This document shows positions 11,101-32,000 of a stretch of DNA of 64,000 nucleotides, one piece after another. The position numbers were made by a program, and so were the translations under genes. Below the pieces are notes generated by a model. It saw only the letters and a list, made by a program, of their open reading frames with translations, was not told the DNA's origin and ran no database searches. Each line of letters begins with the position of its first letter. Position 1 is the first letter of the stretch. Source of the stretch: Lytechinus pictus (Eukaryota); NCBI RefSeq assembly GCF_037042905.1, contig NC_087245.1:18044001-18108000 (forward strand). The letters run 5' to 3'.

Positions 11101-14100
11101 GTAGATCCTCCCATTGGCAATGCGACCAAGATCTGTGATGTCACACACGTACAACTCCCTCATTACTCTAGTACTTATTTCACTTATATTCTCACTTTCA
11201 TAGAGTCTATCACAAGGTGAGGTGTTCTCTTTATGAGAGGACAAGTACAGAGGTTTCACAACATTATATCATTGATGAATCGTTTGTCATATGATTAGAA
11301 TGAGCAAAAAGAGACGTTTTGGGGTATATTTTCAGTGTCCAAAAGGGGAGAGTTGTTCATCTGTGACATCATAGATCTTGGTCGCATTGCCAATAGGAGG
11401 ATCTCCATAGCATTAGTGATCTCGACATTCAAATGCTCATAACTCTTCTATTGCTAGTCCTATTTTACTCAAACTTTTGTTGATCTTATTCTTTGATTTT
11501 TCTGCTTTCACAAAAGCTAACTTGCTCCAAGAGTTTCATTCTCCTTTAATAACGTGAAAGCAACATGACAGATGGTTCACATTTATTGCTTTGACTTTGC
11601 CCTGAAGGTGAAAAAGGGAAGGTGAGAAAAAGGGGCAAGGAGACAGGGAAAGATAGCATATAAAGTAGAATGAAAAACATTTGTACATTTCAAGTAAAAA
11701 AATCTTAACTGAATATTTATTGATGTACATGCATCATATTGGTAAGTCTTACTTTGGTATGTGTATGTGAATAGTTCCTATAGGGATGACTTCCATTGAT
11801 TTGCCCCAGAACTTAGTCTTTATCCTCACATCCTGTGAGTAGATGAAGTTTTTACTGTTGCAATGGCAGGCAATAATGGGAGGATGGTGTGATACCTGGT
11901 GGAAGATAATCAAATGGAATTTGTTCAGCATGGTAAGTTTTTCATCTATTACTTTATATCATCATCACTATCACAATATTACCATTATCATAATGAACAC
12001 AATGATCACCAAACTAACTGCATTCATAAGCATTATATCATTCATCACCATCATCTTATTTATCATCATCCCCCCACCACACAATCATCATTATCATCAT
12101 CACATAACCCCCACCACCATCTCCATCACTATCTTCATCATCTCATTCACAATGCATGATTAATGTGAACACTTCCATCACAACACCAAAAAAACATCAT
12201 CTCTTCTATAAATCTCACCTTCTCGGCAATAAACTTGAACCCCTTGTCATCCCTGACACACTCAAAGGTTTCCCCCAGAAGAGGGTTGAAGGGCTTTGTC
12301 CCTGCTCTAGTATACGTTGAACTGTAGCTAGACACCGCAAAGGCTGCAATGTACACCATCCTCATGTAGGGGTCATCGACCTCTGATGCCTTGTCTAATA
12401 GTTCACTGTACTCTAGCTCTTCACATAGTACCTGAATCAAAGATTAAAATCAGTTGTAAGGTAACTCAATTATAAATTGAATGGAAATATACGCCAAATC
12501 CAAATTAAATCAGAGTTATCTATTTCTTTTAAATAAAACATTACAATTACCAGGATAAAACAAACAGCCTCAAAGCTTAATAGTGATAAATCCATTTACG
12601 TGAAAGCCAGAGGTGAAACAGACATGAACCAAAGGTAATCGCATAAAAGTCACATGAAAAAGAAATACAATTACAATACAAAGTAGATTTGACCAAATTT
12701 AAATGAAATATTCAAACATAAAATCAAAGAAAGAGGGTCAATTCAAACACTGTCTTTCAAAACATACAATCAACCGACTACAAGCTTTCACATACTCTAT
12801 AGAATATTGATTGCACAAAAATATTAAAAAATATGCCCAAATTTCTACCCATTATACTTGATCATCTACCATGAAGTATAAATTCTATGACTTTCACAAA
12901 AATGCATACAAATCATTAATGGTAATGAAATTGAGGATAAAATTACCTGTAGCATACTGAGTGGTTCATTGAGAGCAACAGGCATGGAGATCTTGGAAAG
13001 ATCTTTACCAATGTTTTTCTTGAGGATATTCCATAAACTGAGTTGACTGGTATCGGGCTGGGGTGATGGTAGGTGTGTTCTACGGCCAGTATGTGATCGA
13101 GATGGTGCCTCCTCTCTACCATTCTCCACTGTATAACATCAAATAAAACAAATAATCACAATTTTAATACGTCAATAATGCATTTCTACATCACAGTCCA
13201 TATTTACATGTGCTTTCACAGATGATTAAAACATTAATGTGATCAAAGAGGGGATCAGTGTGAAAAGGAATAAACTGGAATTGTGTGTTCTACGGATGGT
13301 ATGTGATCAAGATGATGCCTTCAGTCTAACCTCTCTCTACTGTAGTATCATCAAAATAAAACAAATAATCACCATGATGATAATAATATGACTAGTTGGT
13401 AGCACATTGTCCACATAGACATTAAAATACACTTTCAAAGATAAATTAAGAAATAAATGTGATCAACTACAGGAACACTGTGAAAAGGAATAACCAAAAG
13501 TGGTCATATTTCATGAGTATGATACGTTTAGTTCAATATTGCGGAAGGCATAGTGTTGATGGGGTATAGGTTGACATACTGAAAATGGACTAAGCAGACA
13601 TATAATGCGGCCTTTAGATATATACATATACCACTTATATACTCACAAAATAGTCCACTTCAGGTCAGTGAAATATTCATGACACTAAACTGTGTGTTTT
13701 GGAATAAAGTAATCCAAATTTAGAGGGCTCATATTAATATATTATCAAAAAAAAATTAATTTACCAGAACAGTGAAAGAGCAACTAATCATCTTTGTATT
13801 GATATCACGCACTATGGCCACAACTCATATAATATAAATAAATTAGTCTGCAAGACAACAGGCACAAGTTCCATTTTGTTTTCCCCCAATTTTATTTTTA
13901 AACATTCAGCCTAAAATTCATTAGTATGGCATCCAAAAGGGCCAAACTCAAAGTGACCATGTTCAATGGCAAATACAATTACACTCATCTGAGGCATCAG
14001 TAAAAGATTTCATCTCTGCCTTACTTCCATAATTTTGATCAACATGGAATTTATAACTGTTGCCTTCAACTTTGATTATTTGAGTAATACCAAAGATAAA

Positions 14101-17100
14101 AGTATAATTCAATTTATAATGCTGAGGGGTGTTCCATTTCAAATTCTGATATATTCATTAATTTCTACAAAGTAGACCTGTTAATTTTGATTCATTTTTT
14201 TTAAACGTGCATATTATAGCTCGACACATTTTTGGTATTATCAGCAGATAAACCATGTGTAGATTTTATTAATATCAAATTTTGGTTACTATGAGAGGGG
14301 AGGAAGATGGAGAGGGGGTAAGGTGTCAATTTGGATTCATTTTCATTATATATTCCCTACAACTTGCCTAGACTATTTTCTAATATGCCTTCAACCAGTA
14401 AATTTGAGAAAATCTGAAATGACATCTGAAAGAAAGTTGCATGCAGAATTAGTGACACAAGACAACAGATATTAACCTAATTGTACATGTATGGGAAATA
14501 TTAGGAGAGAAGATACATGTAGGCAAGCATGCAAGACCAGCAAATGAGATATCTCAGATGATCTGATTGTGTCAACTTGTTGGACAAGTGAATAAATAAA
14601 GGAGTGCGAAAGGAGTAATTATTGGAAGCAAGAAAATTAGGAGTCGGTCAGAATGACAGGACGTTTTCTTAAATGACAAAGACAAATACACTCTCACACA
14701 CATGTTTTCTCTCTCTCTTCCTCTTTTTTAAAATTTTCTTTATTCCCTTCTCTTCCGTGCTAATTTCTGGTTAGTCAGAACTCATTGTTTTTATGTTATT
14801 TGGCCGCATGTATTTTCAATTTTGGTGTATCATGATGGGGATGAATGTCGTAATTTAATACATGCGCCCCCAACATGATAAACAACCTTTCTATATGTTT
14901 TAATATTTCTTATGATGTAGAATTGAGCTTTTTTATTTGATGTTGATTGTATTTTTATGTAAATGATTGTAAAGGGTTATGCAATTTGGCTTTTCAGCTG
15001 CTTTAGATACCCTTGTTGAAATAAACCGTTACAAAAAAAAAAAAAATGAGAGAGAATGAGGACAGATGGAAGGAGGGATATGGAGGAGGAAGAGAGGAAG
15101 TGAGAAAGAAGGGGAGAATGATGAAGGGGGAGAATGGAATGAAAGGACAGGAATGAAAAGAAAGAGTAAAAAGGTGTATCTAGCGAGGGATATCAAGATA
15201 CAGTGTACAATTTAAAATAGGAAAGAGGAAACCAGAAAATACACATGCCCCCCACCAACCAAAAAAGAAGTCAAAGAAAAAGTTAAAGAGTAATGAAACA
15301 ACGGAAGAAGCATTACCAGATGAGTCGTGAGATAAACTGTACAAAAAATACAATAAATATTCATTCTTTCTCTTAACGTAACTTAACACCTTCTGGAGTA
15401 AGAGGTTATACATAGTACACGGGGAAGTCATACCCAGTTCATTCTAAATGTATTCAACTCTACCTTAACCCTTGACATATTTGCTTTTTAAAATACCTTC
15501 CTGTAATCTTGATCTCCTAGCAGGATAATACGTCCTACTTTCCTCCTGAAAATCCCTTTGAATTATTCCCATCGCTGGTACCTAAATTAGCCTAGTCCCT
15601 TTTGCCATTTGCTTTCATTTCCGGCTGACTGTGCGCATAATGTTCACAAATCTCCCTTGCCTAACTGCCGGTTTGGCTGGCTGGCTGGCCATTACTCGGT
15701 ATGGTGGTATGATCACTCTATTGCCATGATGCATACCTGTACAGGCGTACATGTATTAGTGCTATTTTTTAAAGTATCTACATGCACCAAACCAGCATAG
15801 GTTTATGAACTCATACCTATTTTTTGGTTTTGTCAATAACTTTTCATGAAGACCGCTAAAAGTCTTACAAATATATACGAGAAAAAGTACACGATTCAAC
15901 ATTAGGCCAATATATAATGCACCAGAATATATTGTCAAATATTAGGAAATCATAAATAGTGACTGAAAGACTTACAAAGAATATATGAAATTAATTTTTA
16001 AAATACTTGAATTGGCAACTGCGATGAAACTTCTGACCATACTCTGTAACTACATGTCCCTCCAATTATTTCAAACAAACTTTAAAAAGACAACAATCTA
16101 GCTGAGAAAAGAAATATTCGAACAATAAAAGCTGACTGAATAAATGTTAAACAACAACATGCATCAAACTAGCACATGTTGGCTGATAGTAACCAAATGA
16201 TATGTTCATATCTACTGCTGATAGCTATGCATAATGATCCTTTAATAACTCTATGAAGGAGAGTAATTTTTTCTAAAATATACTATAAAAATCATGTCAA
16301 CATACTTTCTATGCAGACTCTTTCTCTACAAAGGGGCAATCGTACAAATTGTGAAGTTTTTATACAAGATTCCTGTATTTAATAACATAAAATGCATGCA
16401 AAGAGCGTACATAGTAAATATGAAATAACAAATACATATTGTATATTTTATGTTGAGCCTCATGCTAGTAGGTTGAACTGAAAGAAACATGAGATCTCCA
16501 CTTAAACCAATAAATGGCGTCAATGTAATATAATCATAAACTTATTCATGCATCCCCCTCTCTCTCTCCCTCTCTCTTACAATAAATAACTCTCCATAAA
16601 GCTTTATTCATTTATGGCTATGAACAATTAACAGTACGTTATCAATTAATATTCTTCAGCAAGAAAATCATTGAGTTATATATCAACTCAGGTGAGGCGT
16701 ATTGGTAGCCGGCAGGATTTATTTAATGCACTGGAAACAGCAGCTGGAGCTATATAAACTATGGCCTCAAAATAGAATATTTCTAGGGAGGAGTGGGGAA
16801 ACTGGATAATGTGCATGTAGCCTGACTCTGAGGACTGTGGTATTATCATTATCCTGATGTAAATTGCTATTATTAAATAATTGCATTTTATTGCTGTTTT
16901 CATTATTATTAGAAGTATAATTTTTACTTGATCATGATGACAACTCACTTAAGATACCAACCATGGGATACATGTAGGTTCTGATATCTAATACAAAATA
17001 CATTTGGTTTACGACACTACCGTCTACCACAAGTTGCAAAGTACTTCAAAGTGAAATTTGAGTGAACTTTAAGAGACTTTTCTGACTACTTCATGCTGAA

Positions 17101-20100
17101 CCTTTGAATGGGGGATTATACACCGACTTGGAATGAATGAATAATGAGACAAACAGAGTAGCAATCCTTAACCAATACATTGCCCTTTAAAAAATGACAT
17201 CCAATATCTATCATGTTACTTGACACAAAGAGTAAGATATTATTGACCTAGAAAGATCGACAATTTGGAGTTCATATGCATTTACTACGGTATCAAATAT
17301 GAATACAAGAGGCAATTCATTTTGGTTTCTCTTATCTCTTTATCTCTTCCAGTTCATTGATTTTCAAGTGCAGTATTGTGTAAATCATAACAGCAAGAAA
17401 AGGGGAAATTCAAGCACACACTGTTCACTGCTCTCATGGTGTTTTCTCATTATTCTACATATGTATCAACTGCTAGAAACTTGAAAGCATTATGCAGCCT
17501 CATACACTGTATTTTCCAAACACTGCATAATTCAATTAATTACATGCCCAGCAAACTGTTGCATAGCTTTGTTGACACCCCTTGAAGCCTTTCCTAATTA
17601 TCCAAATCCAAACATTCAGGGTATTGGAAAGGTAGTCAGTCCCCAGCGTCAACGACTGCTGTAATTTATTCACCATGCTTGGTTTGTAATTGGTGATGTC
17701 TGGATGCCTGTGCAATTGAGCTGTAAGAAACGACGTGATATTCCCACCTGAAGAACAGGCAAGGTGAGAAAATACGCCAAGATGTCCTCGACCAATCTGA
17801 ATTATATATTGAAAGAGCTTTGCTCCGAGGAGATACGGAAACTCTGATTGCATCAGCAAGTCAGGAAAGAGCTAAGGCTTGCAACAAGTTAAGGAATTAG
17901 GAGGGTAGAGGGAGAAGACAATGAGGAAGGTTTAAAAGGTAAGGTGTACCCATCGAAAAATCCATTACTGCATACAAGCAGATTTTGTTTACAGAGATTT
18001 CTTTTTCTTTTTCCTTTCTCAAAATCATTATTATCTAAACTTCTGTACATGCCTATTTAGTACATAAACGAAAAAAGAAATTGTAAACATGTAAATAATA
18101 ATTTATTCTGTTACTAACTCCCAAATCATTAAAAAAAATGAAATAATGGTTTAGTATGTAAAGTTTTTTTTTAGAACTACTAAAGAGGAAACCACCATGT
18201 GTAACAACCCCCCCCCCCCAAAAAAAAAGAGAATATTAATTATACCCAAAAAAAATCAATAATAAAGTATTGCAAGAAGAGGAATGAATGCAATATCTAC
18301 TTGAAAAAATTAAACACCATCCTTAATCTCAACTCAGTGTTTTCATTTTGCCATTGACAAGAGAAAAAAAAGGGTAATCAAAGCTTTTTTTCATCTTTTA
18401 TTAAATTTTCATTTTACAAACCCCTTCTCTAAATTCTGTTTGCATTTGTTGAAGGAAAACAAAGTACATTTCAACATTAAACATCATCATTATTGAGGGT
18501 AATGAAGTCTTAACGTTAGACTTGGAACCATATTAGCTATCACTTTGATGAGAGTTCTGAGAGAAGCTTCTATGATAAAACATCTGTCACATGTAATATA
18601 ATTCTATGACAATATCATCTATTCAGCACTCCAGGGTCATTAAGTCTCGAAAAAGGCAAATACCCTCTAGCTCAAAGAAGTGATATCCCCTCTTCAGGAT
18701 CAGAAATGCATTTGCTCTTATTTCACAAGGAATAAATCCTTGTTGCTTTCAAAGAGATGTTTTAAATTGCTATGAGACGTGGATAAATCAATGCTCAGTG
18801 AACCTCAATGGTAGTATCTTCTTATCACCTGCTTTATAGTCTAGTCAACAAGGCAACCATAGAGAAAATAGTAAAAATACAACAGAATATGTGGAAGGTA
18901 CATAAGTCCTAGGTGAAAAATTCATGGGATATATTAGGGTGAACTGCCCCCTAAATGTCTACCATGGCACTTGTATCCTTTGGCAAGGTCTTTATCTATG
19001 TAAATTTACCACTCTCCACCCAGGTGAAGTAAAATGGATACCAGGCAGGAAAATATATATATATATATATTTGAATGCTGAAGCACCTGATCAGCTTAGA
19101 AACATTAGTTATTAGAAAGGTATGTTATTTTTGCTCCCATTATACCCCAGCGTTTCTGAGACATAAACTCAATATATACTTAAGATTGCAAATTTAAGAG
19201 CCCCAGGTATTAAGATATTCTAGTATATCTAGAGGGCAACATTGCCTTCAAGTTGAACTAATTGTGAGAGATGAAATGTAGAGTAATCTACCATGGACTC
19301 TGCTACATCAGCCCCTCTTATTTTACTTTATTTTAATCTCTAATGACAATAGCTGTCTTGAAATGGATCAATACATGTATGCAAGACAGTCTCTGTTTTT
19401 ATAATGACATTGGTTAACATCATTACAGAACAGAAGCATTGTTTAGCTTTTAAATGTCATCCATTTGCTTTCAACTTCAACTCATCATTCTCTCCATCTC
19501 TCTCACACACTATCACCCTCCACCCCCCCCCCCCGGCCCAAGTCCTGTCTCTTTGAAATAACGCTTGTAAATTTTTTCTATAATTTCATGATAGCCAAGT
19601 TAGTATTTGGGGGCTCCAGCATACTCTCGTATGCAAAGGAGCTAATCTGGTCCCTAATCAAACTCCTCTCAGAGTGAGATGAGGGACCAGCCCTGATGGA
19701 GTGATATTTCGGTCTTTCAAGAGTGAATTTTCACCTCTTTTGGAGTGAAAGTACACTTTCAATCAAAAAAAGGTGAAAACTCACTCTTGACAAAAACTGA
19801 AATCTCACTCCATCAGGACTTGTCCCTTATCTCACTCTGACAGTGTTATTAGGGACCAGATAAGCTCCTTAACATGTATCCCACGTCCTGCATTTTTGTA
19901 TACGTATTGTACAAAAGGCCTTGGGACACTGTATGTAACATGAAAGGTCAATACTTGATGTCAATTTGTCCTGAAAATAAATATAACTTTTCTAAATTCT
20001 ATAATTAATCATTATGTTTTTTTTTTCTTCTTTAAATGCACTTAATCTATGTACATGTACCTAGACTCTCAGTTGCATAACTATCACATATTCACACTTG

Positions 20101-22988
20101 TGTAAGAAGCCAACGAATATGACCTGAAATATATCCAACTCTAAATCCCAAGAATCTCATCAGGTGCCAAGTTTACTCACGTCCAACAAACCCATCCTGT
20201 CTACTTATCCCCTACCTCATCAGTTACCATGGCAACAGGTCGTTTCCATGAGGAAACCATACAAAAATCTGCATCTCATTTTATTAAGAAGCTAACTGGA
20301 TATTGCAGACCCTGCACCAGGTGAATTTCTCCCCTCCATTTTGAATTTGAAGCAATGCATGGTTTATGGGGATGACGGATAATGAATTATGATAGTAAGT
20401 TGAGTAAATGGATTGGAACAATATGGGGTAGGTCGGATGGTAATCTCTTCATAGTGCACTGGGATGAGAGTAGCATGCACTGAAGCTCATCAGCATACAT
20501 CACTAATGACTGACTGAGATTTAAGAGGACCACTGAATGAAAGGTTTTTAAAAAATGTAAACATGTAAAAAAAAAATGATATTGGAATATCCAGGGACCC
20601 ATTGATCTAACATACATGACACTATTAGAAATGAAACATGTGAAGCAAGAAGGCTTGAATATTTCTTCCTTTAACAAGAAATTTCTTTTATGATTTAGAT
20701 GATTAAACCACTCAAAAGTCTTTGATAGGTTTGAAGGTTCCATTGAAATAGAAGAGCTGTCAAGAGTTTTGTTATTCGATCTTGAAAAGCCACTACAACA
20801 TCATAACATTTGTCAAGAGTTATGTGCAAAGAGAGTGAGAGAGAGATTAAAGAAAACAAGAGAGAAAGGTAAATTATTTAAAATCATTGCAGATGCATAT
20901 TTAATTTTGAAAAAAAAATGGTATTCAAAATAATTCATGTTCTATTTTCAGTTTTTCGGTTTTCAAATGAAATTGTAATATTGATGTACATATAATTGTC
21001 GTGACATATTCATGATAAAAATATATTATATGCAGAAATGAATTGAAGGCAACATGAATCATCATCATAATTATTGCGCAATGTGAAATACTCTTTGTGA
21101 AAAAGAGCACACAATAACAATCACTTTAATCTACATTATATGTACATGTCTCCACATTTTATAACTCCATTTCCCCTTGTCTATTGCTATCTATGCCTAT
21201 AAACCTGTCTTCCTTTCTATCCCCTGTACTGACATATGTAGTACATACAGTCCCTCCATTCATCTATCTTTTAGTATCAGCTAATTTTCTATCTATCTAC
21301 ATGTCTATTTCTTTCTCTCTCTCTAGATATATATATATCTGCATATGTATTAAAACACCTTCAAGTCAGTAGACCTCTAAACCAAATAATAATCAATATA
21401 TTGTGGATGGATTAGAGGGAACACAAATACGTCTGAAATGAAAAGGGCAACATCCTCAGTATCATGACTCTTAATGACACAGTATTATATGAGACTGTCT
21501 GCCTTTTTATGACTTTAATAATGGAGACATAAAATCTTCAGATTGAAGAAAAGCAAAAGAGACATGTCTTTATCGGTTTTCGAATTTTTACTTGTGATTG
21601 CCAAGCTTTTTGAAGCTATTCAGATCTATATATATATCTATCTCCCTGTATGGTTATATATTCTTGGAATCCAGCTTGCTAAAAATATTTTTAACTCTGT
21701 TAGACAATCCTCTAGCATCTTTAAGGCTTAGACTACTGAATGCACCATTTGTTTTCAGAATATGCATTGATTCATAAACTGGTCAACTGCTGAATATATT
21801 GTAATGTGCACAATTCGCTTCAATGAAATCTAATGAAGATGTTAAAGTACTGACTGTAATTTAATACTTGAAGGATGACAAAAAGAGAATCATGGCGCCT
21901 ATATAAATTGAAGACACATGCACATCATAAAAACCATGATGTGCAATTTTTTTTCAGTCTTTTCTTCAATGTAGTATTTCCATGAACTCAAGAACCTCAA
22001 CCTCAAAATGGTATTGATTAATACCTATACATGTTTAAGACATGACAATGGTGCGATGGACATGTTAATGATACAATACTTGAGTGCTAAAAGGAACAAA
22101 GACTGATTGTTGTGGATGAGTGCTTGCTCAGTGCTCTAAATGTACCACTTTTCTAACATAAATCAATCTGATCATATGAAATAAATGAAAGAACAGAAAT
22201 CTTTAATAAACAAAATAATTTTAATATGAAACATGCATGGCCAGGAAAATGGTAAATATATCATCAATTTACATCAAAATCATGTGTTCAGATTGAATTA
22301 ATATTGTCAACTTTCCTATGCAATCACAAACTGATAATCATCATGTCATATGCTACAGATGTCAAGAACAGCTCATTTCTTTGGGTTCAATTCTAATAAT
22401 CAATGGCAATTATGACCTACATGGAAAGAGCCACTGGCAATACAGAAACAAGTGGAGATTACTGTACATGTACATGTACACAACAAGGTGGTTAGATTCA
22501 ATAAAAGACTGTTCAACCAAGCATGTAAGCACCTACCAGAGCATGGCTTGTCCATAAACGTTACTGTCATTCTCTCTATTGCTTCCAACACAAGACTATG
22601 TCCACTTAAAACATCTCATTTTTCAAATCCATCTGCTGGAACAGGATCCCCTCCTCACACAATTCCACAAGATAACACTTGTTAATGTCAGCCTTAAAAA
22701 ATCTATAACTCTCTCACTGGAGCAATTTGGAGTGCGAGGCTAGCTAGTGGCTATACAGACACGGCCATCCCACACACTCACCGGTTCTGACGACATTCGC
22801 GATGCAAGCCACACTTTAATTAATCTGCCATATATGCGCTCGTTCGGTGACGAGTATGAGCAGCGCAGAGACCTTTAAGATCATGTATTTGACTTGACAA
22901 TGTGAGTATGCATTGCAGTGAACAGAGGGGTGGGGAGAGAGGGTGAACAGAGGGGTGGGGAAGGGAAGAGAGCATAATGGACAGAGAG

Positions 22989-23025
<37 letters not shown>

Positions 23026-26000
23026 AAAAGAGAAAGAGAGACATGGGGACAGAGGATGGGAGAAAACCAGACAGAGGAAAAAAGGAAGTAGGAATGAGAT
23101 CAAGAAAGACAGAAAGAGATAGAAATAAAGAAGAGGGACAAGGAAAAACAGAGAAACAAATAAATATTTGTTTAAACAGAGAGAGAGAGGATAAGGATGC
23201 CAAATAATGAAAGTAAACAGTGTTAGAACTACAGAGAGTGCAGAGAGAAGATGGAGAAACTACAAAAGGGAAAGATAACTTTTTTTCAAAAAAGGACAGA
23301 GGGGAGAAGGCAGAGAGGGGCACACACGGTGCAAGGTGGGATGGGGGTGTGTGTGTGTTTTCAAACCAGTATGGTACAATGAATGAAGTACTTGTATAGT
23401 GATGAAATCAATTTGTGCATATGTCGATGCATGGTAAACCAAATTAGGACTTGCCATTCAACTATTCCATCAGTGAATACACCATGCATGAATCTGCATC
23501 AATTAAATAGTTCAATTACCTTTGTACTAGTTACTAAGCTCAAGCTGTCTTCTGGAGTGATGGTGCATCAGATAGCATTTAATACGGAAATATATTTCAT
23601 CATGTGTGCTTTAAGGCTTGTTCAGAAATAGTGTGTCAAAGCTCAGCAAGATTTTTGTGTCAAATGGATATAAGATATTGCAGAGGCAATATCAAAAAAA
23701 GGTTGGGTATTTCTTGTTTATAAAATTGCTAGGCAAATTTATCAATTCATAAATGAAATTTAGCTCAATAACTGGGAAACCTCAAATTTAAAAACTATTG
23801 GCCAAAATGTTGACTATTTGCAAGTGTTTATGTTTCAATCAGCAATATATTGCAAAACTGTTTTGTATGTTCAAAACGGTACAATGTCATTTTTCAACAA
23901 TTTTTGTGCAGGTTTTAGTGATTTCCATCCTCTTGCATGACAACAAAATCAGCAGACTAATCAATTTTTTCTGAAAAGTTATAGAAAATCAAGTTATTAA
24001 AGTAAACAAACTCATGACATGTGTAATAAGGAAATCCCCATGGCATCAAATAACATGAATCATGACATCAAAGATAAGTCTGTACTACTATTTGTTTTAC
24101 TTTCAATTAGAACAGTGCTATTTATCTCACTCTGTATGACAAATGGTACATGTACATGTACAGATGTAATTGGCTTGTACATTATGTGAACAAGGCTCCA
24201 ATCTTAATACTCAAAAGACACACATCAACGTGTCTACTTAAATTTGAGCATTTTTTGGTTACATTCAAAATGAACAAGCAAATATTTTCATATAACTAAT
24301 TGAGAAATAACTGAAACTGGGTCTTGGAAAATATTATCATCTGAATTATATGTCCACCTTTATAGCATAAAGCCTTTTATAGCAAACCTGTTGATACAAA
24401 TAGCAACATGCTCATTTTTATTTTCATTCAAGATCAAATGGCATTGGTGTCTGTACAAAAAAAATGCAAATACATGTTTATACTTTTGTTTTCAGAAAAA
24501 CATGTGTCATATGAATGCCACCTTCCACTAAAGCCCATGTGTTCTAACCCTAATGTGGTGTTTAGTAATAAACATGTAACAATAGCCCAATAATGTATCA
24601 AATCTCTTTTAAGTGTTCTTTGCCTGTGGAGGCAATATAGCATCATAAATGCAAACGATCCCTCCACTGATGCATCTAAAGCTGAGCTCTCCCAGTTAAT
24701 GATTATTTTGGCAGCCAGCAGTCTTCAAATATTTGCAGAGAGTGTAAGCAGAGTTCTATGTGTAGCTGCATATGTAATAGCCTACTGGAATTATAGTGGG
24801 AATATGCAGGATTAGATGGCTCCCGTCGTAAAAATATGACACCAATGAATATATCATCCACATTTATTTTAGAAATCCAATTTCATGTTGATAACAGAAA
24901 AACATTCATTTTGTGATTTCATAGTTTTTATTAAGCATTTATTGAAATAATTAACTATTCCTACCAAAAAGCTGTTAACCAGTAACCAACTCTTTCTAAA
25001 GAGTTTAAAGTTTAATTCAATCTTTCATCTCTGAATAATTTCTAATATAAATAATTTATTGGTTGGATTGCTTAACTAAGCTAGTCGTACAGACTGTTTC
25101 ACCCTAAGGCTCATCAGCGACTAGATGATATTGCAGTATATCACTACTTACTTACTTACCTAATTTCTAATATATTCAATCAATCAGTACTACATAGAAC
25201 ATGCAAACCCCACAAAATAATCATTTATCAGTTGATCACGTTTTATCTAAATATCACTACATAAACATATAGTACATAGCTAGTAGAGATATCCCTGGGG
25301 GGCACTCAAATTATTTTTTTTATGGGGGTGGGCCATACGAAACTCTGAAATGGGGGTCTAAGGAACTGACTAAAAGGGCAAAGTACGGGTCTTGGGAACT
25401 AGATATATACCGCGCGGTGTGAAAAACAGGGTCTACGGAACGGGATTGCGGCACTTCAATCAATTTCAATTTAAAAAATTGATAGTCTTAATTTTGAGTT
25501 TGTACAATATATGGATTTCAAGAAGTTAATTTCACGATGTTTAATCATTTAACAATTCAATTTGATAATGATCAATTTAGAATTGATTCCTCAAATAATT
25601 TTATTGCCAATTCAATAACATATCTATTTTTTTTTAATAATCATAAAGTAAAAACAAAAATCACTCTTTTCTTTAATCAATAAAAATATTGATGTGAGTG
25701 TGATTTCTCAAAATCATTCAAAAAATCTAATACAAAATTAATTTTCTTATCAAATTTGATTCTAAGAATGCAAAATAATACTCAGGGAAAAGTTGTCTTA
25801 AATCTTTTAATGCAAGGTCAAAATTGTTTTTCATGATTAAATCAGATCTCAATAGGTGGTTTCAAACCGCCTCGATCACAAGAATCCCCGTTAAATTACG
25901 AGAACATTTTTAGGCTAAAAAATACCCATTAATTATTCCTGCATTCAGACCGCCCCGAAACATACACTTCGGGATAAATTCCTGAAGTTAGGAGCATGCG

Positions 26001-29000
26001 CAGTATGGTCTAATAAGCAGGCAAGGCGCGAGATTCAAAACCACTAGCCCACCAGACACCCACGGCGCTGCACCCAACGACACGCTGGGCTAAAAGTTCC
26101 CGTAATTTGCTTTCACATCGCCAAAATACCTGCGACCTTGGAAAAATCCCCGTGAAAGTTCTCGTAATTTCGCCAAGTACTTACTATTTAGCGGGTATTT
26201 TCTTTCGGGGAAATTACGCGTAGTTTGCTTTCACATTACCAAAATACCTGGTATTTTCTGATTGGGGTAAATTTCCCGATCAGAGAATACCTAGAACTGA
26301 CGAACTTCGAGGCGGTCTGAAACCACCTAATGAGCTCACAAAATTGTGCTGCTTCAAGATGATGAAGATAAACACATTTTGATTCTAAGGCCATAAATAT
26401 GTTCTAGACCTCTATCTTGCCCATACTGGCAATGAATGCTATCTATGAGCACCGAAAGGTGGACCTGTGCACTACAGTCCGACCTTTCTTTTCCGGCCTC
26501 CTCTTATCCGGATCTCTCTATTATCCAGACGCACACTTGCCGAGTGTTTTTTTTTTTCAATCTAGTAGGTGGAAAAACGAGATTTCAATCTAAACTCAAA
26601 ATTCCTACGCAAACTCACTTTGATTACATACATTTTCCAACCTACAACCACATTATCTTTTATGAAAATATCTTACCCAAATCACCGAAAGAACTTAAAC
26701 AGGATGATTTTCCAGTAAATCATTAAAACCATTTTATCACATTCTCTTTTTTTTTCCCAGGAAAAAACAACACATGTCTCACTAACTAGCGCTAGGCCTC
26801 GATACAGACAGTGCCATCTATCATGTTTGAGCCTACAGTCATAACAATGGCCTACTTTGAGAAGCTGCGATGGTCGCCGCGATGATCCAATATTAAAACT
26901 TACATGTAATTTCATTCTCTTTCTTTCGAGGTATGCTCGATGTATACCTCAATCATTTCAGCAGGTAAATTTTCCAAGATTTTTGGTAACCAATTGATTT
27001 CATTTCCGTAAAAAACGCCTATAATTTGCACTGACACTGCAGTGAATACTGTCTGTGTATGCCCACTACAATAGATTATGTGTAGCTACCATAGGGGAGG
27101 CAGTTGCGTGTATTTGTATTGGGTCTCCCAGATCCGGATAAATCCCTTATCCGGATTGGTGCTGGTCCCAACGTGTCCAGATAAGAGAGGTTGGACTGTA
27201 GCCACCATTATTATTATCTAATATAATACATGTTCATTTCTAATTTTGGCAACCAAATAAATTTATATTTTACCCTGTAATCATATTCCTAGTGCTATAC
27301 ACTTTGGAAAAAATATAACCCCTAAGGGAAAATATGCCAAAATAATGTTATATTACACACCCAAACTTGGTCAGTCAATACCTGTATAACAGGACAGAAA
27401 GGGATACTAAATTATGGTATACTAAAATATATTTCATTCAAAACCCAGGATTTGCCATACGTAATGTATGCAAATTAAATTTTAATAAAAGACAAATAGA
27501 GAGTTCATCGTTATCTAAAAGAAAGAAATATTAATATGCAATCTGGCCTGTGCATGCTCCTTTTTAACAAAGACTTGAAGGTTAAGCATAAATACGGATG
27601 AATCCATGTATTTCATCACAATCACTACCATTTGCAAATTTATATTGAAAGCTGTTATCAAGCTTCAGATGACATTTAGTGTATGATGGTGGTCCCCAAG
27701 TGTGCGCACCTAACGATTTGAGTTAAGATTTAACATGAATTTCTTATTACTTCATAAAAATCTTTCAGTTGATAATGATCCTTATATTCTTATGAGTAAG
27801 TGTGCCAAATATCTCATAACAAATTTGAAAGAAATATATGATTTTCTTGGAAAAATCCTCAAGCAGTAATTTTCAGATTGAACAAAAAACATGCGATTCA
27901 GGGAGTTTGATGAGAAAGGCTGCATTGTGAGGCCGTCACATGAAATGCCCAAAATTCATTATTTTCCCACCATTTTGAGTCAGACTTTTTAATGAATATC
28001 TGTCTATGTATTGCATGTGTAAAGTTTGTGTTCGCTGCGTATCTTCTATCACTAGAATCGCGCAGATACGCGTATGCACAGACAAGAGGGACTGCGCAGA
28101 CTTGGGGGAACTTGCCATACATTTTAAAATTTTACCCACATTTCATATAAAATCATTTGGATTCTGTAGACTGTATCATACAGGAAAAACAAAATAATCA
28201 AGAAACTACATTTCAAATTAGACAAGACAAACTAACTATTGCATGTGCTGTATTCATCCCAATTGAAAAGCCTGCTTATAAACAGGGCATATAAGGAGAT
28301 GAAAATGCAACAAGCCAATAATTCCCTTTATTTCTCTAAAATGTTATTTGATATTGAAACAGATAGTATGCACAAAGTGAGACAAAAGACTAAACAAGTG
28401 GAACGCCTCTGGCAGTCTCGCCTGCATTACGCGATTTAATATAGCAGCAGTGCTAACTTTGAAAACTACTATAAAATAATCATTCACAAACACTCCATTC
28501 ATATAATGACATAATACCACGTTCATTGACCATAAATGACATTTGAACGGTGACTTAAGACTTGTCAACTACATCCATGTCCACATTTCAATCACTCTAT
28601 CTATAAACTTTCAAAGTTATGATGGCAATTCAACAAGTACCCCAACATGGCCTGAGTTTATTGACCTTAACTGACCTTTGACCTTGGTTTTGTGACCTGA
28701 AACTCACAGGGGATGTTCAGTGATACTTGATTACTCTTATATCCCAAGTTTTATGAACTAGATCCATAAACTTTCAGAGTTAGGATGGTAATTTAACAAA
28801 TACCCCCAACACGGCCAAAGTTCATTGACCTTTAATGACCTTTGACCATGGTCATGTGACCTGAAACTCGTACAGGATGTTCAGTGATACTTGATTACTC
28901 TTATGTCCAAGTTTTATGAACTAAATCCGTAAACTTTCAGAGTTAGGATGGTAATTTAACAAATACCCCCAACACAGCCAAAGTTCATTGACCTTAAATG

Positions 29001-32000
29001 ACCATTGACCATGGTCATGTGACCTGAAACTCGCACATGATGTTTGCTAATACTTGATTAACCTTATGTCCAAGTTTCATGAACTAGATCCATAAATTTT
29101 CAAAGTTATGATAGTAATTCAACAAATACCCCCAACTTGACCAAAGTTCATTGACCCTAAATGACCTTTGACCTTGGTCACGTGACCTGAAACTCGAGCA
29201 GGATGTTCACTAATACTTGATTAACCTTATGCCTAAGTTACATGAACTAGGTCCATATACTTTCTAAGTTATGATGTCATTTCAAAAACTTAACCTTCGG
29301 TTAAGATTTTGAAAATAATTCTCCCAACATGGTCAAAGTTCATTGACCCTAAATGACCTTTGACCTTGGTCATGTGACCTGAAACTCAGGCAGGATGTTT
29401 AGTAATACTTGATTAACCTTATGTCCAAGTTTCATGAACTAGGTCCATATACTTTCTAAGTTATGATGTCATTTCAAAAACTTAACCTTAGGTTAAGATT
29501 TGATGTTGACGCCGCCGCCGTCGGAAAAGCGGCGCCTATAGTCTCGCTCTGCTATGCAGGCGAGACAAAAAAACAAAAAAGGATGGTCAGATGACCTGCA
29601 AACATAATGGCATCTACCTACGAAGGGCACAGGGTGAAAACATTCTCTTCTATGGGGAAGGAATACATTTTCAAAAGGGCTTTTCAATAATTTCTTTCAC
29701 TCTCCACAGAAAATCACATACACCAAGCACATCAGCAACATTCAAATTCAAACTTTAATTAAATTTGGACTTTAACTCTTTGTGCGCTGGACCATGAACC
29801 CATCTGTACTGAATTATTTTCAGGGAGGGAAACAATGCGTTGTTTGTTGAGTGTTTGTGTTTGTTGAGCACCGAGTGTGCATTGGTGCGAAGTACACGTG
29901 AAAAGGGTTAAATGATACAGCAAAATGGAGACTAAGTTCTTATCTCAAGTAAACTAATTACTTTAGGTATCATAACAGGAATCACCAAACAGTTTTGAAG
30001 AAATGGACAATTTCAATGTGACATTACCGATCTACAACTGCTATTTCTTTCAAAGATTGTAGGCTTAGTGGTGACTAGATGCTGAACGAGATTCTTAGCA
30101 AAAGCTGTTAAGTTGCCACTTTTGTTAGGAACATTACACAAATATATAATAATAAGAATAGTTGTGCTTCATAACTTTTGTACGTAAGTATCTAATCCAG
30201 CTATAGATAAATACGATCATTATCACAGAGATGCCAACCTAAAGGGATGGTTGTCAGGAATATTTACCATATTTGTCAGGAACAAATGGGAGTTTCTCAG
30301 GAACATCCCGCGAAGTAGCATCGTTTATACGCTCAAAAAAAAAAAACTCAGAAAATGAGTGAACAATGTCTCCGCCTTAATGATTTCGTGATCAGCTGAA
30401 ATTGATGTAGAGGATTGGAAAAATGTATCGATTCCAGGAGCTTTCTGCAACTTGGCATATTCTTTATGCTTTTTGCTTGAAACATGTCTTCTACAGTCAT
30501 CGCGTCCTCCGTGTGAAATTGAAACATCCAGTTTGCACGCTGAACAAAAGATGTGGTTTTTACTCACTTTACTTGGCTTTAAAACTGGCCACACAGCAGA
30601 GTATTCCATTTTAAATGTCTGCAATCTCCTTTTTTTTGGTAGGCTGTGACTCCATTTCGCCTGCGTCCGTAATTCTTTTGCGCGATTCCATGATGTTAAC
30701 GATGTTAAACTTTCAACCACCAAGACGAATGCTACTTCGAAGTTTGAACTCGCTACAGTGCAATACACGTATATGCAGCGCAGTGACGTGCCTAGCAGTA
30801 GCACTGCACTAGCAGTTACATGCGATTACCATGTCACACATGTGTTCATGTGTACAGTCAATCGCCATTGACATTGTGCATGCATGAACCGCGGCTTGCA
30901 CTCCGCACTTCGCTGTGTATTCAGCAGCAGCGCGCGGAGGCGCTTGCAATAGAAATCTCAGTAGAGAAACTCCCGTTGGTTTACCGTTGGCCACACACAC
31001 GCTGCATGCACGATACATGTATACACAATACACGCATATACATGCACAATACACAATACACGCATATATACACATGCACAGCAAAGCAATACACAATACA
31101 CATGTATTGTAGTTGTTTTTTCCGTAACCTTTTTACTGTTGCCGTAACACCGTAATTGGAGGAATAAAATCGGAACAAATACGGCGAATCCGGAACGGTT
31201 GGCATCTCTGTTATCATCATCAGGAATTATGAATTATTATTATTCTTAAAATCAAGACACCCAGGCCTGTATTCTGGAGTCTAATCTAACTCGGCTAAAC
31301 TTATGGGTAATTGAAATTATGAGAATTGTCTTTGCACTGCATGCTTATATTCATTGTGCTCTTTAATGGTGAATAAAGCTATTTCATTTATCATTCCCAG
31401 TAAGTTATGAATGATTTGAACAACAAATGTGCTGACAAATGGAACTTCAATTACCAGAGACTAGTGTCGTAGTTAAACCACAACTTCACACAAGAGTTTA
31501 AATCGAACCTGAATTCAGAATACAAGCCATACACTTAATACAAACACTCCACAAAACGAAAAGTAATACTTACAATCTCGGAAGTCATCTTCCTCAAAGT
31601 CAGCTGCATCATCATCTTCGCTGGTTACCGAACTTTCAACCTCCTCCTCCTTACAAAACAAAATAAGTTGTGAAGCAATCAAATGTAATTCTGTCATCGC
31701 CTTTCCAGGCAATTAAACAACATAATTAGGTACAACCAGGGGAAAAATATTGCTTGCATTTTTTCCCTACAACTCTTTACATCAAAATTGTATTGAACCC
31801 AATAGCAATTTACAGAGGCTCTTTCACAGCAAACATTGTCATTTAATTTTGTATTTCTTTTTTGCCCTTACCCCCATCTACTTTTTAGTGCAATCTTTGT
31901 ACAGAAAATTTGAAATCTTGCTGATAAAAAAATTAAATTCATGATCATCAACCCTCAGTCACACAAGATTGGGCTTTAAAGCTTAACAAGTTTATTTAGT

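What the first reader, a model, noticed from the sequence alone, without database searches (positions are those of the whole stretch)
25081..25124. Intact-looking hammerhead ribozyme in the sense strand of the ORP pre-mRNA, between the PH/FFAT and ORD halves
Seen: the minus strand reads CUAGUCG CUGAUGA GCC-UUAG-GGU GAAA CA-GUC-UG UA CGACUAG. It has all conserved core nucleotides, a perfect 7-bp stem I, a 3-bp stem II and a short, near-palindromic stem III; the predicted cut is after GUA, between 25088 and 25087. Established: this is type I hammerhead topology, and short/palindromic stem III versions in metazoans are linked to Penelope-like elements and retrozymes and often cleave best as dimers. 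Inference: it lies on the transcribed strand of intron 12 (13129-31573). Co-transcriptional cleavage could therefore affect splicing of this long intron or favour ORD-less or ORD-only transcripts of a lipid-transfer protein.
Basis: partly seen in the sequence, partly recalled or inferred. Interest (0 to 1): 0.85.

Follow-up and report, generated by a model that had tools for sequence, protein, structure and literature searches.

The report
Retrotransposon hammerhead stub in an intron
The hammerhead ribozyme motif is really there, but it is the tail end of a young Penelope-like jumping gene that landed as a 115-base stub inside an intron, an ordinary and already described kind of sequence with no sign that it affects the host gene.

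Summary
The minus strand 25124..25081 carries a complete type I hammerhead: core CUGAUGA / GAA / A15.1-U16.1 / A17, 7-bp helix I, 3-bp helix II, 3-bp helix III, cut site 25088|25087. It lies in sense orientation in the GT-AG intron 31573..13129 of an oxysterol-binding-protein-related gene.

It is not a host feature. It belongs to a 77-nt tail (25122..25046) that is 100% identical to copies elsewhere in the genome. The 35-nt motif occurs 78 times (55 exact). The parent element encodes a telomerase-like reverse transcriptase with a C-terminal GIY-YIG endonuclease. Its motifs match the Hydra clade of Penelope-like elements, and it inserts into (TA)n as tandem or inverted copies.

The window copy is a 115-bp stub: a 34-nt inverted piece of the element's 5' region plus the tail, between 10-14-bp target-site duplications. 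Four related families in this genome carry covarying hammerheads at the same place, each with a 9-nt near-palindromic helix III of the dimer-dependent type.

No second copy lies in the window. The 10.1-11.1 pair is G.U, and the hammerhead fold is not the predicted minimum. No RNA data cover the locus. Cleavage of the host pre-mRNA is unshown and unlikely. The scan has already noted such stubs in this genome.

The parts
25081..25124 (-). Type I hammerhead motif: helix I CUAGUCG/CGACUAG, core CUGAUGA, helix II GCC-UUAG-GGU (G.U closing pair), GAA, helix III ACA-GUC-UGU, A17. The predicted cut lies between 25088 and 25087.
25046..25122 (-). 3' tail of a Penelope-like element (hammerhead plus 43 nt after the cut site, ending ..AATAAATTATTTATA). 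It is 100% identical over 77 nt to the copy in L019.
25055..25060 (-). AATAAA hexamer inside the element tail, about 10 nt before the element's 3' end. It is in sense orientation to the host pre-mRNA.
   Evidence: its role as a poly(A) signal is an inference
25125..25126 (-). Two filler bases (AU) between the inverted piece and the hammerhead. The next two bases, CU (25124-25123), are also not element sequence and lengthen helix I from the family's 5 bp to 7 bp.
25127..25160 (-). 34-nt inverted (reverse-complement) piece of the element's own 5' region (..GATATTGCAGTATATCACTA..), joined head to head to the tail.
   Evidence: X8 contig
25161..25174 (-). Upstream copy of the target-site duplication TATATTAGAAATTA. 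Ten bases (TTAGAAATTA) are certain. The first four (TATA) overlap what could be element end.
25036..25049 (-). Downstream copy of the target-site duplication TATATTAGAAATTA.
13129..31573 (-). Host intron (GT..AG) of the oxysterol-binding-protein-related gene that holds the insertion.

Best explanation
The motif is the conserved 3'-terminal hammerhead of a young, low-copy family of Penelope-like retrotransposons (PLEs) of the Hydra clade.

The parent element is about 2.5-3 kb. [quoted passage not shown] It is copied by target-primed reverse transcription into AT-rich DNA, mostly (TA)n. It leaves partial tandem and head-to-head inverted copies.

The window copy is an abortive product of one such event. 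It is 115 bp long: the last 77-80 nt of the element RNA (hammerhead plus tail), joined to a 34-nt inverted piece of the element's 5' region. It sits between 10-14-bp target-site duplications in an 18.4-kb intron.

Within the element, the ribozyme is of the kind that needs two copies to build an extended helix III. Its role in the element's life cycle is still open in the literature.

In the host pre-mRNA the single copy most likely does nothing measurable. Shown here: identity, copy number, anatomy of the insertion, and homology of the parent element. Inferred: lack of effect on the host.
For: Copy number and identity
- A 131-nt query gave 49 matches in the window's own 812-Mb genome, most 98-100% identical over 25122..25045.
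- The 35-nt hammerhead occurs 78 times at <=2 mismatches, 55 of them exact. The reversed control gave 0.

Parent element
- Longer copies carry an ORF upstream of the tail. It is 601 aa open in L031, and 719 aa in the 68%-identical family B copy L032.
- The ORF has the motifs RW, DKT, YRDD, CxCX5C, VVY..YIG with no cysteines between, CxxC..E..N..CxH. These fit the Hydra clade as described in Craig et al. 2021, section 11.
- The AlphaFold2 model (pLDDT 88.7) has telomerase reverse transcriptases as its best Foldseek matches: 3du5 E 2.7e-9, and 8 of the first 10 rows.

Insertion pattern in the family
- Of 77 unique copies, 63 end at the full tail. Of those, 28 are followed by (TA)n, 22 by the 5' start of a next copy, and 13 by other DNA.
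- 43 of 77 have their 5' boundary within 0-10 nt upstream of CUGAUGA. Of these, 20 are joined to an inverted tail and 7 to an inverted 5' start, as in the window.

Window copy
- The target-site duplication TATATTAGAAATTA lies at 25174-25161 and 25049-25036.

Conservation of the hammerhead within related elements
- Four related PLE families in the same genome carry a hammerhead at the same place with compensatory changes.
- Helix I is AGUCG/CGACU, UAGUUG/CAACUA, AGUUGC/GCAAUU or GUCUGC/GCAGAC.
- Helix III is ACAGUCUGU, ACUCAGAGU, ACCGCCGGU or ACCAUUGGU.

Literature (passages read)
- Minimal hammerheads sit in the repeats of all PLEs. They mostly occur as single dispersed motifs from truncated PLEs or as close pairs on opposite strands. 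One tested single S. mansoni motif showed no detectable cleavage (Cervera and de la Pena 2014).

No dimer partner in cis
- There is no other PLE piece in the window: tblastn found none, and blastn found only 25122-25046.
Against: - The core is intact and identical to that of 54 other exact copies. Helix I is longer here (7 bp) than in the family (5 bp). Helix III has 3 pairs, more than the 0-2 of many minimal hammerheads. Some self-cleavage as a monomer, or in trans with transcripts of the other copies, therefore cannot be excluded.
- The thermodynamic argument ignores tertiary structure and co-transcriptional folding.
- No RNA or population data for this locus could be obtained, so 'no effect on the host' is an inference, not a result.
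- Pfam gave no match for the ORF. A sequence search of solved structures gave only two weak, unrelated matches (E about 0.01). The protein assignment rests on motifs, one fold search and the literature description.
Confidence: 0.88

Rival explanations
1. The sense-strand hammerhead cleaves the nascent ORP pre-mRNA, alone or paired with another copy's transcript. That changes splicing of the long intron or favours truncated isoforms without the ORD.
For: - The motif is in sense orientation inside the intron.
- The core is complete, with a perfect 7-bp helix I.
- At least 77 other copies in the genome could supply a partner RNA in trans.
- Conserved intronic ribozymes with proposed roles exist in vertebrates. 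I saw this as a statement and references in de la Pena et al. 2020, PMC7761336, and in the listing of the CPEB3 ribozyme paper PMC10274809.
Against: - It is a recent transposon copy, not a conserved host element.
- It is of the dimer-dependent type, and the window holds no second copy.
- The 10.1-11.1 pair is G.U.
- Helix I is open, so no loop 1 exists to make the loop-loop contacts needed at low Mg2+. This step rests on established knowledge restated.
- The hammerhead fold lies 4.8 kcal/mol above the predicted minimum and is absent from the predicted fold in context.
- For another PLE, RNA-seq showed no reads beginning or ending at the hammerhead site (Frangieh et al. 2024).
Confidence: 0.07
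2. The copy is a member of a non-autonomous family rather than a broken copy of the autonomous element. In this reading, the roughly 80-nt 'hammerhead plus tail' unit is a self-contained small RNA, transcribed from its own start site and copied in trans by the PLE enzyme. It would be related to animal non-LTR retrozymes.
For: - 43 of 77 copies begin within 10 nt of the hammerhead's 5' edge, with a mode at 3-5 nt, and none begin between 11 and 14 nt.
- A TCAGT-like word, which resembles an initiator element, sits at that edge in 5 families.
- An AATAAA lies 10 nt before the tail end.
- Li, Clavereau and Pollet 2026 (abstract read) derive animal retrozymes from PLE pseudo-LTRs.
Against: - No direct tandem arrays of the 80-nt unit were seen. 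The 22 'tandem' cases are a tail followed by the start of a full element.
- Many of the short copies are joined to inverted pieces, as expected from template switching during one insertion event.
- In family E only about 3-7 of 28 copies have a boundary near the hammerhead.
- There are no transcript data.
Confidence: 0.04
3. The match to the hammerhead consensus is a chance event in AT-rich intron DNA.
For: A loose descriptor gives 2 further hits in the window that look like chance. It gives 0.31 hits per simulated window.
Against: The strict descriptor gave 0 hits in 300 simulated windows. There are 78 copies in the genome against 0 for the reversed control. Related families carry homologous motifs with compensatory changes.
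Confidence: 0.01

Closest known systems
Minimal or small type I hammerheads in the pseudo-LTRs of metazoan Penelope-like elements (Cervera and de la Pena 2014, PMC4209133, text read; Lunse, Weinberg and Breaker 2017, seen only as a reference in PMC7761336)
   Same: - The position is the same: near the 3' end or repeat of a PLE.
- The topology is type I, with a short helix I and a short palindromic helix III suited to dimer formation.
- Most copies are single dispersed motifs from truncated elements, or close pairs on opposite strands.
- Families within one genome covary.
   Different: - This family has G.U at 10.1-11.1 instead of the conserved G-C.
[quoted passage not shown] Family B in the same genome does have one.
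- Helix III has 3 pairs, where many min-HHRs have none.
- Copies are nearly identical, as in D. virilis, rather than highly variable.
Hydra clade of C-terminal EN+ Penelope-like elements (Craig, Yushenova, Rodriguez and Arkhipova 2021, PMC8557442, section 11 read)
   Same: - There is a single ORF of about 700 aa.
- It has the DKT motif in place of DKG, a CxCX5C linker, GIY-YIG without the CCHH cysteines, and CxxC and CxH around the conserved E and N.
- Insertions go into (TA)n, and a hammerhead is present.
- The hosts are aquatic invertebrates, echinoderms included.
   Different: I built no phylogeny, so clade membership rests on motifs only. This particular family may not be catalogued; I did not check Repbase or the paper's supplements.
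Animal non-LTR retrozymes (Cervera and de la Pena 2020, PMC7229834, listing only; Li et al. 2026 preprint, abstract and one section read)
   Same: They also carry a type I hammerhead, are non-coding, have a PLE-type origin and have target-site duplications.
   Different: Retrozymes are direct tandem repeats of 170-400 nt that give circular RNAs. Here the unit is single, about 80 nt long, and joined to an inverted piece. There is no tandem array.
Conserved intronic ribozymes of vertebrates (HH9/HH10 hammerheads; CPEB3 HDV-like ribozyme)
   Same: They are also self-cleaving motifs on the sense strand of an intron of a protein-coding gene.
   Different: Those are single-copy and conserved across species, and they are stable as monomers. 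This one is a copy of an active transposon. It gave no match to the Rfam models, and its conservation could not be tested.

Membership tests
Hammerhead ribozyme, type I | Catalytic core C3 U4 G5 A6 N7 G8 A9 ... G12 A13 A14 ... A15.1-U16.1, with H17 before the cut | tested here: met
   All positions are present on the minus strand 25117..25088.
Hammerhead ribozyme, type I | Three helices around the core, with helix I open-ended | tested here: met
   Helix I is 7 bp, helix II 3 bp and helix III 3 bp. The strict descriptor gave 0 hits in 300 simulated windows.
Hammerhead ribozyme, type I | Conserved G10.1-C11.1 pair | tested here: not met
   G10.1 faces U11.1, a wobble pair.
Hammerhead ribozyme, type I | Score at or above the gathering threshold of an Rfam hammerhead model | tested here: not met
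   There were 0 matches at gathering score. At E<=10 only RAGATH-1-hammerhead matched, at 16.9 bits against 56.3.
Hammerhead ribozyme, type I | Site-specific self-cleavage | not testable with these tools
   No RNA run holds the locus. An in vitro assay is needed.
PLE-associated minimal hammerhead (Cervera and de la Pena 2014) | Lies in the terminal repeat or tail of a Penelope-like element | tested here: met
   It lies about 180 nt downstream of an RT/GIY-YIG ORF and 43 nt before the element's 3' end.
PLE-associated minimal hammerhead (Cervera and de la Pena 2014) | Palindromic 15.2-16.2 and loop 3, allowing a dimer with an extended helix III | tested here: met
   ACAGUCUGU can pair with itself over 8 of 9 positions, with a central U.U. 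The same design occurs in 4 other families.
PLE-associated minimal hammerhead (Cervera and de la Pena 2014) | [quoted passage not shown] | tested here: not met
   No such reading fits family A. Family B fits it (A, then CCC/GGG).
Penelope-like elements, Hydra clade (Craig et al. 2021) | Telomerase-like reverse transcriptase | tested here: met
   The YRDD motif is present. The AF2 model has pLDDT 88.7. The top Foldseek matches are TERT, best E 2.7e-9. Pfam gave no match.
Penelope-like elements, Hydra clade (Craig et al. 2021) | C-terminal GIY-YIG endonuclease without CCHH; CxCX5C linker; DKT motif; CxxC and CxH near E and N | tested here: met
   The ORF reads CNCRKTEDC, VIY-x11-YIG with no Cys between, PADKT, and CNLC..WEK..N..CRH. 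These columns are invariant in 41 aligned relatives. This is motif reading only, with no profile or fold test of the EN domain.
Penelope-like elements, Hydra clade (Craig et al. 2021) | Insertion into (TA)n, partial tandems and inverted copies | tested here: met
   Among 77 unique copies, 28 full tails are followed by (TA)n and 22 by the start of a next copy. Twenty head-to-head joints were found.
Penelope-like elements, Hydra clade (Craig et al. 2021) | Placement inside the clade in an RT phylogeny | not tested
   I built no tree and had no reference sequences of the named clades at hand.
Animal non-LTR retrozymes | Direct tandem repeats of a 170-400-nt unit, each with a hammerhead | tested here: not met
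   The window holds a single copy. No tandem array of the short unit occurs among the 77 copies.

The most novel reading that the evidence does not exclude
In this PLE family the element RNA may begin exactly at the 5' strand of hammerhead helix I.

Three observations suggest this. A TCAGT-like word, which resembles an initiator, sits at that edge in five families. Of 77 copies, 43 start within 10 nt of it. Head-to-head joints turn around there.

If so, 'hammerhead plus tail' would be a minimal transcription unit of about 80 nt that is competent for retrotransposition. The ribozyme would sit at the capped 5' end of every element transcript. That would give it a defined job, such as removing the 5' leader or marking the pseudo-LTR boundary.

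An alternative is a 3' splice site at the same edge, as reported for D. virilis Penelope.
Probability: 0.2. Interest if true: 0.4.

Novelty: new member of a known kind. Interest (0 to 1): 0.12.

Why it matters
It matters little for the host gene. The result removes a tempting but unsupported story of a ribozyme regulating a lipid-transfer protein.

It adds one well-resolved example of how Hydra-clade Penelope-like elements leave short stubs that start at the hammerhead, with clear target-site duplications outside (TA)n. It also shows that five families in one genome keep a hammerhead of the same design: a 9-nt near-palindromic helix III.

The clustering of 5' ends at the ribozyme's edge could help to work out what the ribozyme does for the element. 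That role is still open in the literature (Craig et al. 2021; Frangieh et al. 2024).

Tried and rejected
- Rfam: no hammerhead family reached its threshold. The RAGATH-1 match at 16.9 bits is far below gathering score, so I dropped it.
- Pfam on the element ORFs and on three database relatives gave no RT or GIY-YIG match. PF26215 and PF28514, listed as precomputed for relatives, did not appear in my scans, and I do not know their names.
- A sequence search of solved structures gave only two weak, unrelated matches (MecR1, E about 0.01).
- Sequencing runs: no RNA holder was listed. All 16 rows held only 5-6% of the words.
- Laying 4 of those 16 runs showed that they hold only the two repeats, 25045-25176 and 25297-25455. 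They hold nothing of the unique flanks. Expression, RNA ends at the cut site, and presence or absence of the insertion in other individuals therefore could not be examined. The contig ends at 25099 and 25122 in run X4 are assembly breaks, not RNA ends.
- I tested whether the 5'-end hot spot at the hammerhead edge is general. In family E only about 3-7 of 28 copies show it, so it is not a rule.
- My first boundary classifier under-called short matches and mis-called diverged long copies as truncated. I replaced it. One of the 43 'short' copies (L067) is probably a longer copy with an internal change.
- RNAcofold of two copies gave a long intermolecular duplex, not the double hammerhead. Nearest-neighbour folding cannot judge the dimer, so I drew no conclusion from it.
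- Lunse et al. 2017 (PMC5785218) is not held.
Full report
**Observation**

The minus strand 25124..25081 reads CUAGUCG CUGAUGA GCCUUAGGGU GAA ACAGUCUGU A CGACUAG. This is a complete type I hammerhead:
- The core is C3-A9, G12-A14, A15.1-U16.1 and A17.
- Helix I has 7 perfect pairs.
- Helix II has 3 pairs around a UUAG loop.
- Helix III has 3 pairs around a GUC loop.
- The cut site lies between 25088 and 25087.

A strict descriptor of my own found this one site in the window and none in 300 simulated windows of the same composition. A loose descriptor found 3 sites in the window against 0.31 expected.

Two departures from the textbook motif should be stated. The 10.1-11.1 pair is G.U rather than G-C. 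No Rfam hammerhead model reaches its threshold: there were 0 matches at gathering score, and at E<=10 only RAGATH-1-hammerhead matched, at 16.9 bits against 56.3.

**Host context**

Minus-strand exon ORFs at 12869-13138, 12150-12443, 11752-11958 and 5615-5767 match Pfam Oxysterol_BP.

Further upstream on the same strand lie exon-like ORFs:
- an acidic stretch at 31518-31712;
- an EFFDAQE word at 32334-32504, which I recall as FFAT-like;
- PH-like pieces at 40720-40890 and 48591-48845. These are too short for Pfam and gave no match.

The intron starts with GTAAGT at 31573 and ends with CAG at 13129.

**What it is**

A 131-nt query around the motif found 49 matches in the window's own genome (812 Mb, 368 contigs). 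Most are 98-100% identical over 25122..25045. The 35-nt hammerhead itself occurs 78 times at up to 2 mismatches, 55 of them exact, against 0 for the reversed pattern.

In the longer copies the hammerhead lies about 180 nt downstream of an ORF and 43 nt before a sharp 3' end..AATAAATTATTTATA. That end is followed either by a (TA)n run or by the 5' start of a next copy, CTCAGCTCC...

The ORF is 601 aa open in L031, and 719 aa in L032 from a sister family with 68% identity. Its motifs, in order:
- RW, PADKT and YRDDGL;
- a CNCRKTEDC linker (CxCX5C);
- VIY-x11-YIG with no cysteines between;
- CNLC..WEK..N..CRH.

This is the set of features that Craig et al. 2021 give for the Hydra clade of Penelope-like elements (PLEs). 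They also report insertion into (TA)n, readily detected hammerheads and aquatic invertebrate hosts, including echinoderms (section 11 read).

Pfam gave nothing. An AlphaFold2 model built on 41 aligned relatives (pLDDT 88.7, pTM 0.86) has telomerase reverse transcriptases as its best Foldseek matches in the PDB. The top hit is 3du5 at E 2.7e-9, and 8 of the first 10 rows are TERT. That is what is expected of a PLE enzyme.

A database search found 3553 relatives of about 700 aa among 8000 scored candidates. The few named ones come from a bryozoan and a coral.

**Anatomy of the window copy**

Reading the minus strand:
1. TATATTAGAAATTA (25174-25161);
2. a 34-nt reverse-complement piece of the element's own 5' region (25160-25127);
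3. two filler bases;
4. CU followed by the element tail from AGUCG to ..AUUUAUA (25122-25046, 77 nt, 100% identical to L019);
5. TATATTAGAAATTA again (25049-25036).

This is a 115-bp insertion between target-site duplications of 10-14 bp. Four bases are ambiguous because the element ends in TATA.

The two bases CU that lengthen helix I from the family's 5 pairs to 7 are junction bases, not element sequence.

No other piece of the element lies in the window. tblastn with the ORF found nothing, and blastn found only the tail.

**The family as a whole**

3' ends of the 77 unique copies:
- 63 end at the full tail. Of these, 28 are followed by (TA)n, 22 by a next copy's 5' start and 13 by other DNA.
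- The other 14 have shorter or altered tails.

5' ends of the 77 unique copies:
- 34 extend at least 15 nt upstream into the 3' UTR.
- 43 have their boundary within 0-10 nt upstream of CUGAUGA. There are 9, 7 and 7 at 3, 4 and 5 nt, and none at 11-14 nt.
- Of those 43, 20 are joined head to head to an inverted tail, 7 to an inverted 5' start (the window's arrangement), 6 to (TA)n and 10 to other DNA.

These are the 'complex tandem/inverted insertions' described for PLEs (Craig et al. 2021). They also match the single dispersed or closely opposed hammerheads that Cervera and de la Pena 2014 attributed to truncated PLEs.

**Is the hammerhead functional for the element?**

Four other PLE families in this genome, at 68% to about 46% protein identity, carry a hammerhead at the same place.

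Helix I changes by compensatory substitutions: AGUCG/CGACU, UAGUUG/CAACUA, AGUUGC/GCAAUU, GUCUGC/GCAGAC. Helix II differs in length and sequence.

Helix III is always a 9-nt A...U word: ACAGUCUGU, ACUCAGAGU, ACCGCCGGU or ACCAUUGGU. It can form either a 3-bp hairpin or, between two copies, an 8-pair duplex with one central mismatch.

That is the design described for PLE hammerheads that work as dimers (Cervera and de la Pena 2014). Lunse et al. 2017 I saw only as a citation in PMC7761336.

The role of the ribozyme in the element is open. Craig et al. note that PLE clades without it do at least as well. Frangieh et al. 2024 found that catalytic mutants did not affect insertion in vitro, and they saw no RNA-seq reads ending at the cut site.

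**Does it act on the host pre-mRNA?**

Nothing shows that it does, and several things speak against it:
- The copy is a recent, nearly neutral-looking insertion, identical to its relatives.
- It is alone in the window, so it has no partner in cis.
- Helix I is open-ended, so there is no loop 1 for the tertiary contacts that make hammerheads fast at cellular Mg2+ (established knowledge, restated).
- The 10.1-11.1 pair is a wobble.
- The hammerhead secondary structure is 4.8 kcal/mol above the predicted minimum (-8.2 against -13.0). In that minimum C3-G5 pair with part of helix III. In 204 nt of context the predicted fold does not contain the hammerhead at all.
- Cervera and de la Pena report no detectable cleavage for a single minimal motif and only weak cleavage for dimers.

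Against this, the core is intact, helix I is unusually long here, and helix III has three pairs. Slow cleavage cannot be excluded, and folding energies ignore tertiary and co-transcriptional effects.

I could not test it. The run search listed no run holding more than 6% of the words. The four of 16 runs that I laid cover only the PLE tail and a second, very abundant repeat at 25297-25455, and nothing of the unique flanks.

**An open point seen on the way**

The 5' ends of the short copies cluster at the 5' edge of helix I. That edge carries a TCAGT-like word in all five families: TCAGTC, TTAGTT, TCAGTT, TCAGTC and TCAGTG.

The word resembles an initiator element, which I recall as TCAGTY. That reading would put the start of the element RNA on the first base of helix I. 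The pseudo-LTR is known to hold the transcription start in Penelope (Craig et al. 2021).

The word also resembles a 3' splice site (pyrimidine-rich run, UACUAAU, CAG|). Cervera and de la Pena note that the D. virilis Penelope intron ends at the 5' end of helix I.

In family E the clustering is weak, with about 3-7 of 28 copies. I leave this as a lead.

**Comparison and verdict**

The thing works like, and is, a PLE-associated small hammerhead. The parent element fits the Hydra clade by motifs, though I did not test this by phylogeny. It is not a retrozyme, because there is no tandem array. It is not comparable to the conserved intronic ribozymes of vertebrates.

Earlier notes of this scan reached the same conclusion for other hammerhead stubs in this same genome (e1-7810984, e1-7882047) and in another genome (e1-7788996). 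They call the organism a sea urchin, which I did not check.

The finding is real but ordinary. I rate it a new member of a known kind, of low interest.

Noticed in passing
window 25297-25455: A second repeat about 160 nt long, 170 nt from the PLE stub, is held at very high depth in the contigs of runs of three coded organisms (summed word depth up to about 46,800 in X1). It is probably a very abundant short interspersed repeat. I did not classify it.
   Followed up: no
window 28521-29505: A tandem array of about six units of 163 nt (one spacing of 192 nt), with 69-90% identity between units, lies inside the same intron.
   Followed up: no
L001-L079 (family A copies); L032-L043 (families B-E): The 5' boundaries of 43 of 77 family A copies fall within 10 nt upstream of CUGAUGA. 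A TCAGT-like word, resembling either an initiator or a 3' splice site, sits at that edge in five PLE families. In family E the clustering is weak (about 3-7 of 28).
   Followed up: partly
G000:C15:1879589-2021411 (rows): There are dozens of regularly spaced matches (about 2.8-3.2 kb apart) to the first 195 residues of the query (a 334-aa C-terminal part of the family A ORF), at 44-47% identity. Each has an open frame of about 535-539 aa. It looks like a long tandem array of a related RT-bearing unit that lacks the endonuclease part.
   Followed up: no
window 22919-23320: A purine-rich (AG)n-like low-complexity tract lies in the intron. It shows up as many overlapping direct and inverted repeat families.
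   Followed up: no
window 55558-55627 (minus) and 7852-7917 (plus): Two further loose hammerhead-descriptor hits have long irregular helix II or III regions. They fall within the number expected by chance (0.31 per window; 62 of 300 simulated windows had at least one).
   Followed up: partly
runs X4, X8: Contigs from two other coded organisms carry the family A tail with 0 differences and continue into the element's 3' UTR or 5' start. The same PLE family, nearly identical, is therefore present in samples labelled as other organisms. These could be close relatives, or the labels could differ for one species. I did not pursue this.
   Followed up: no
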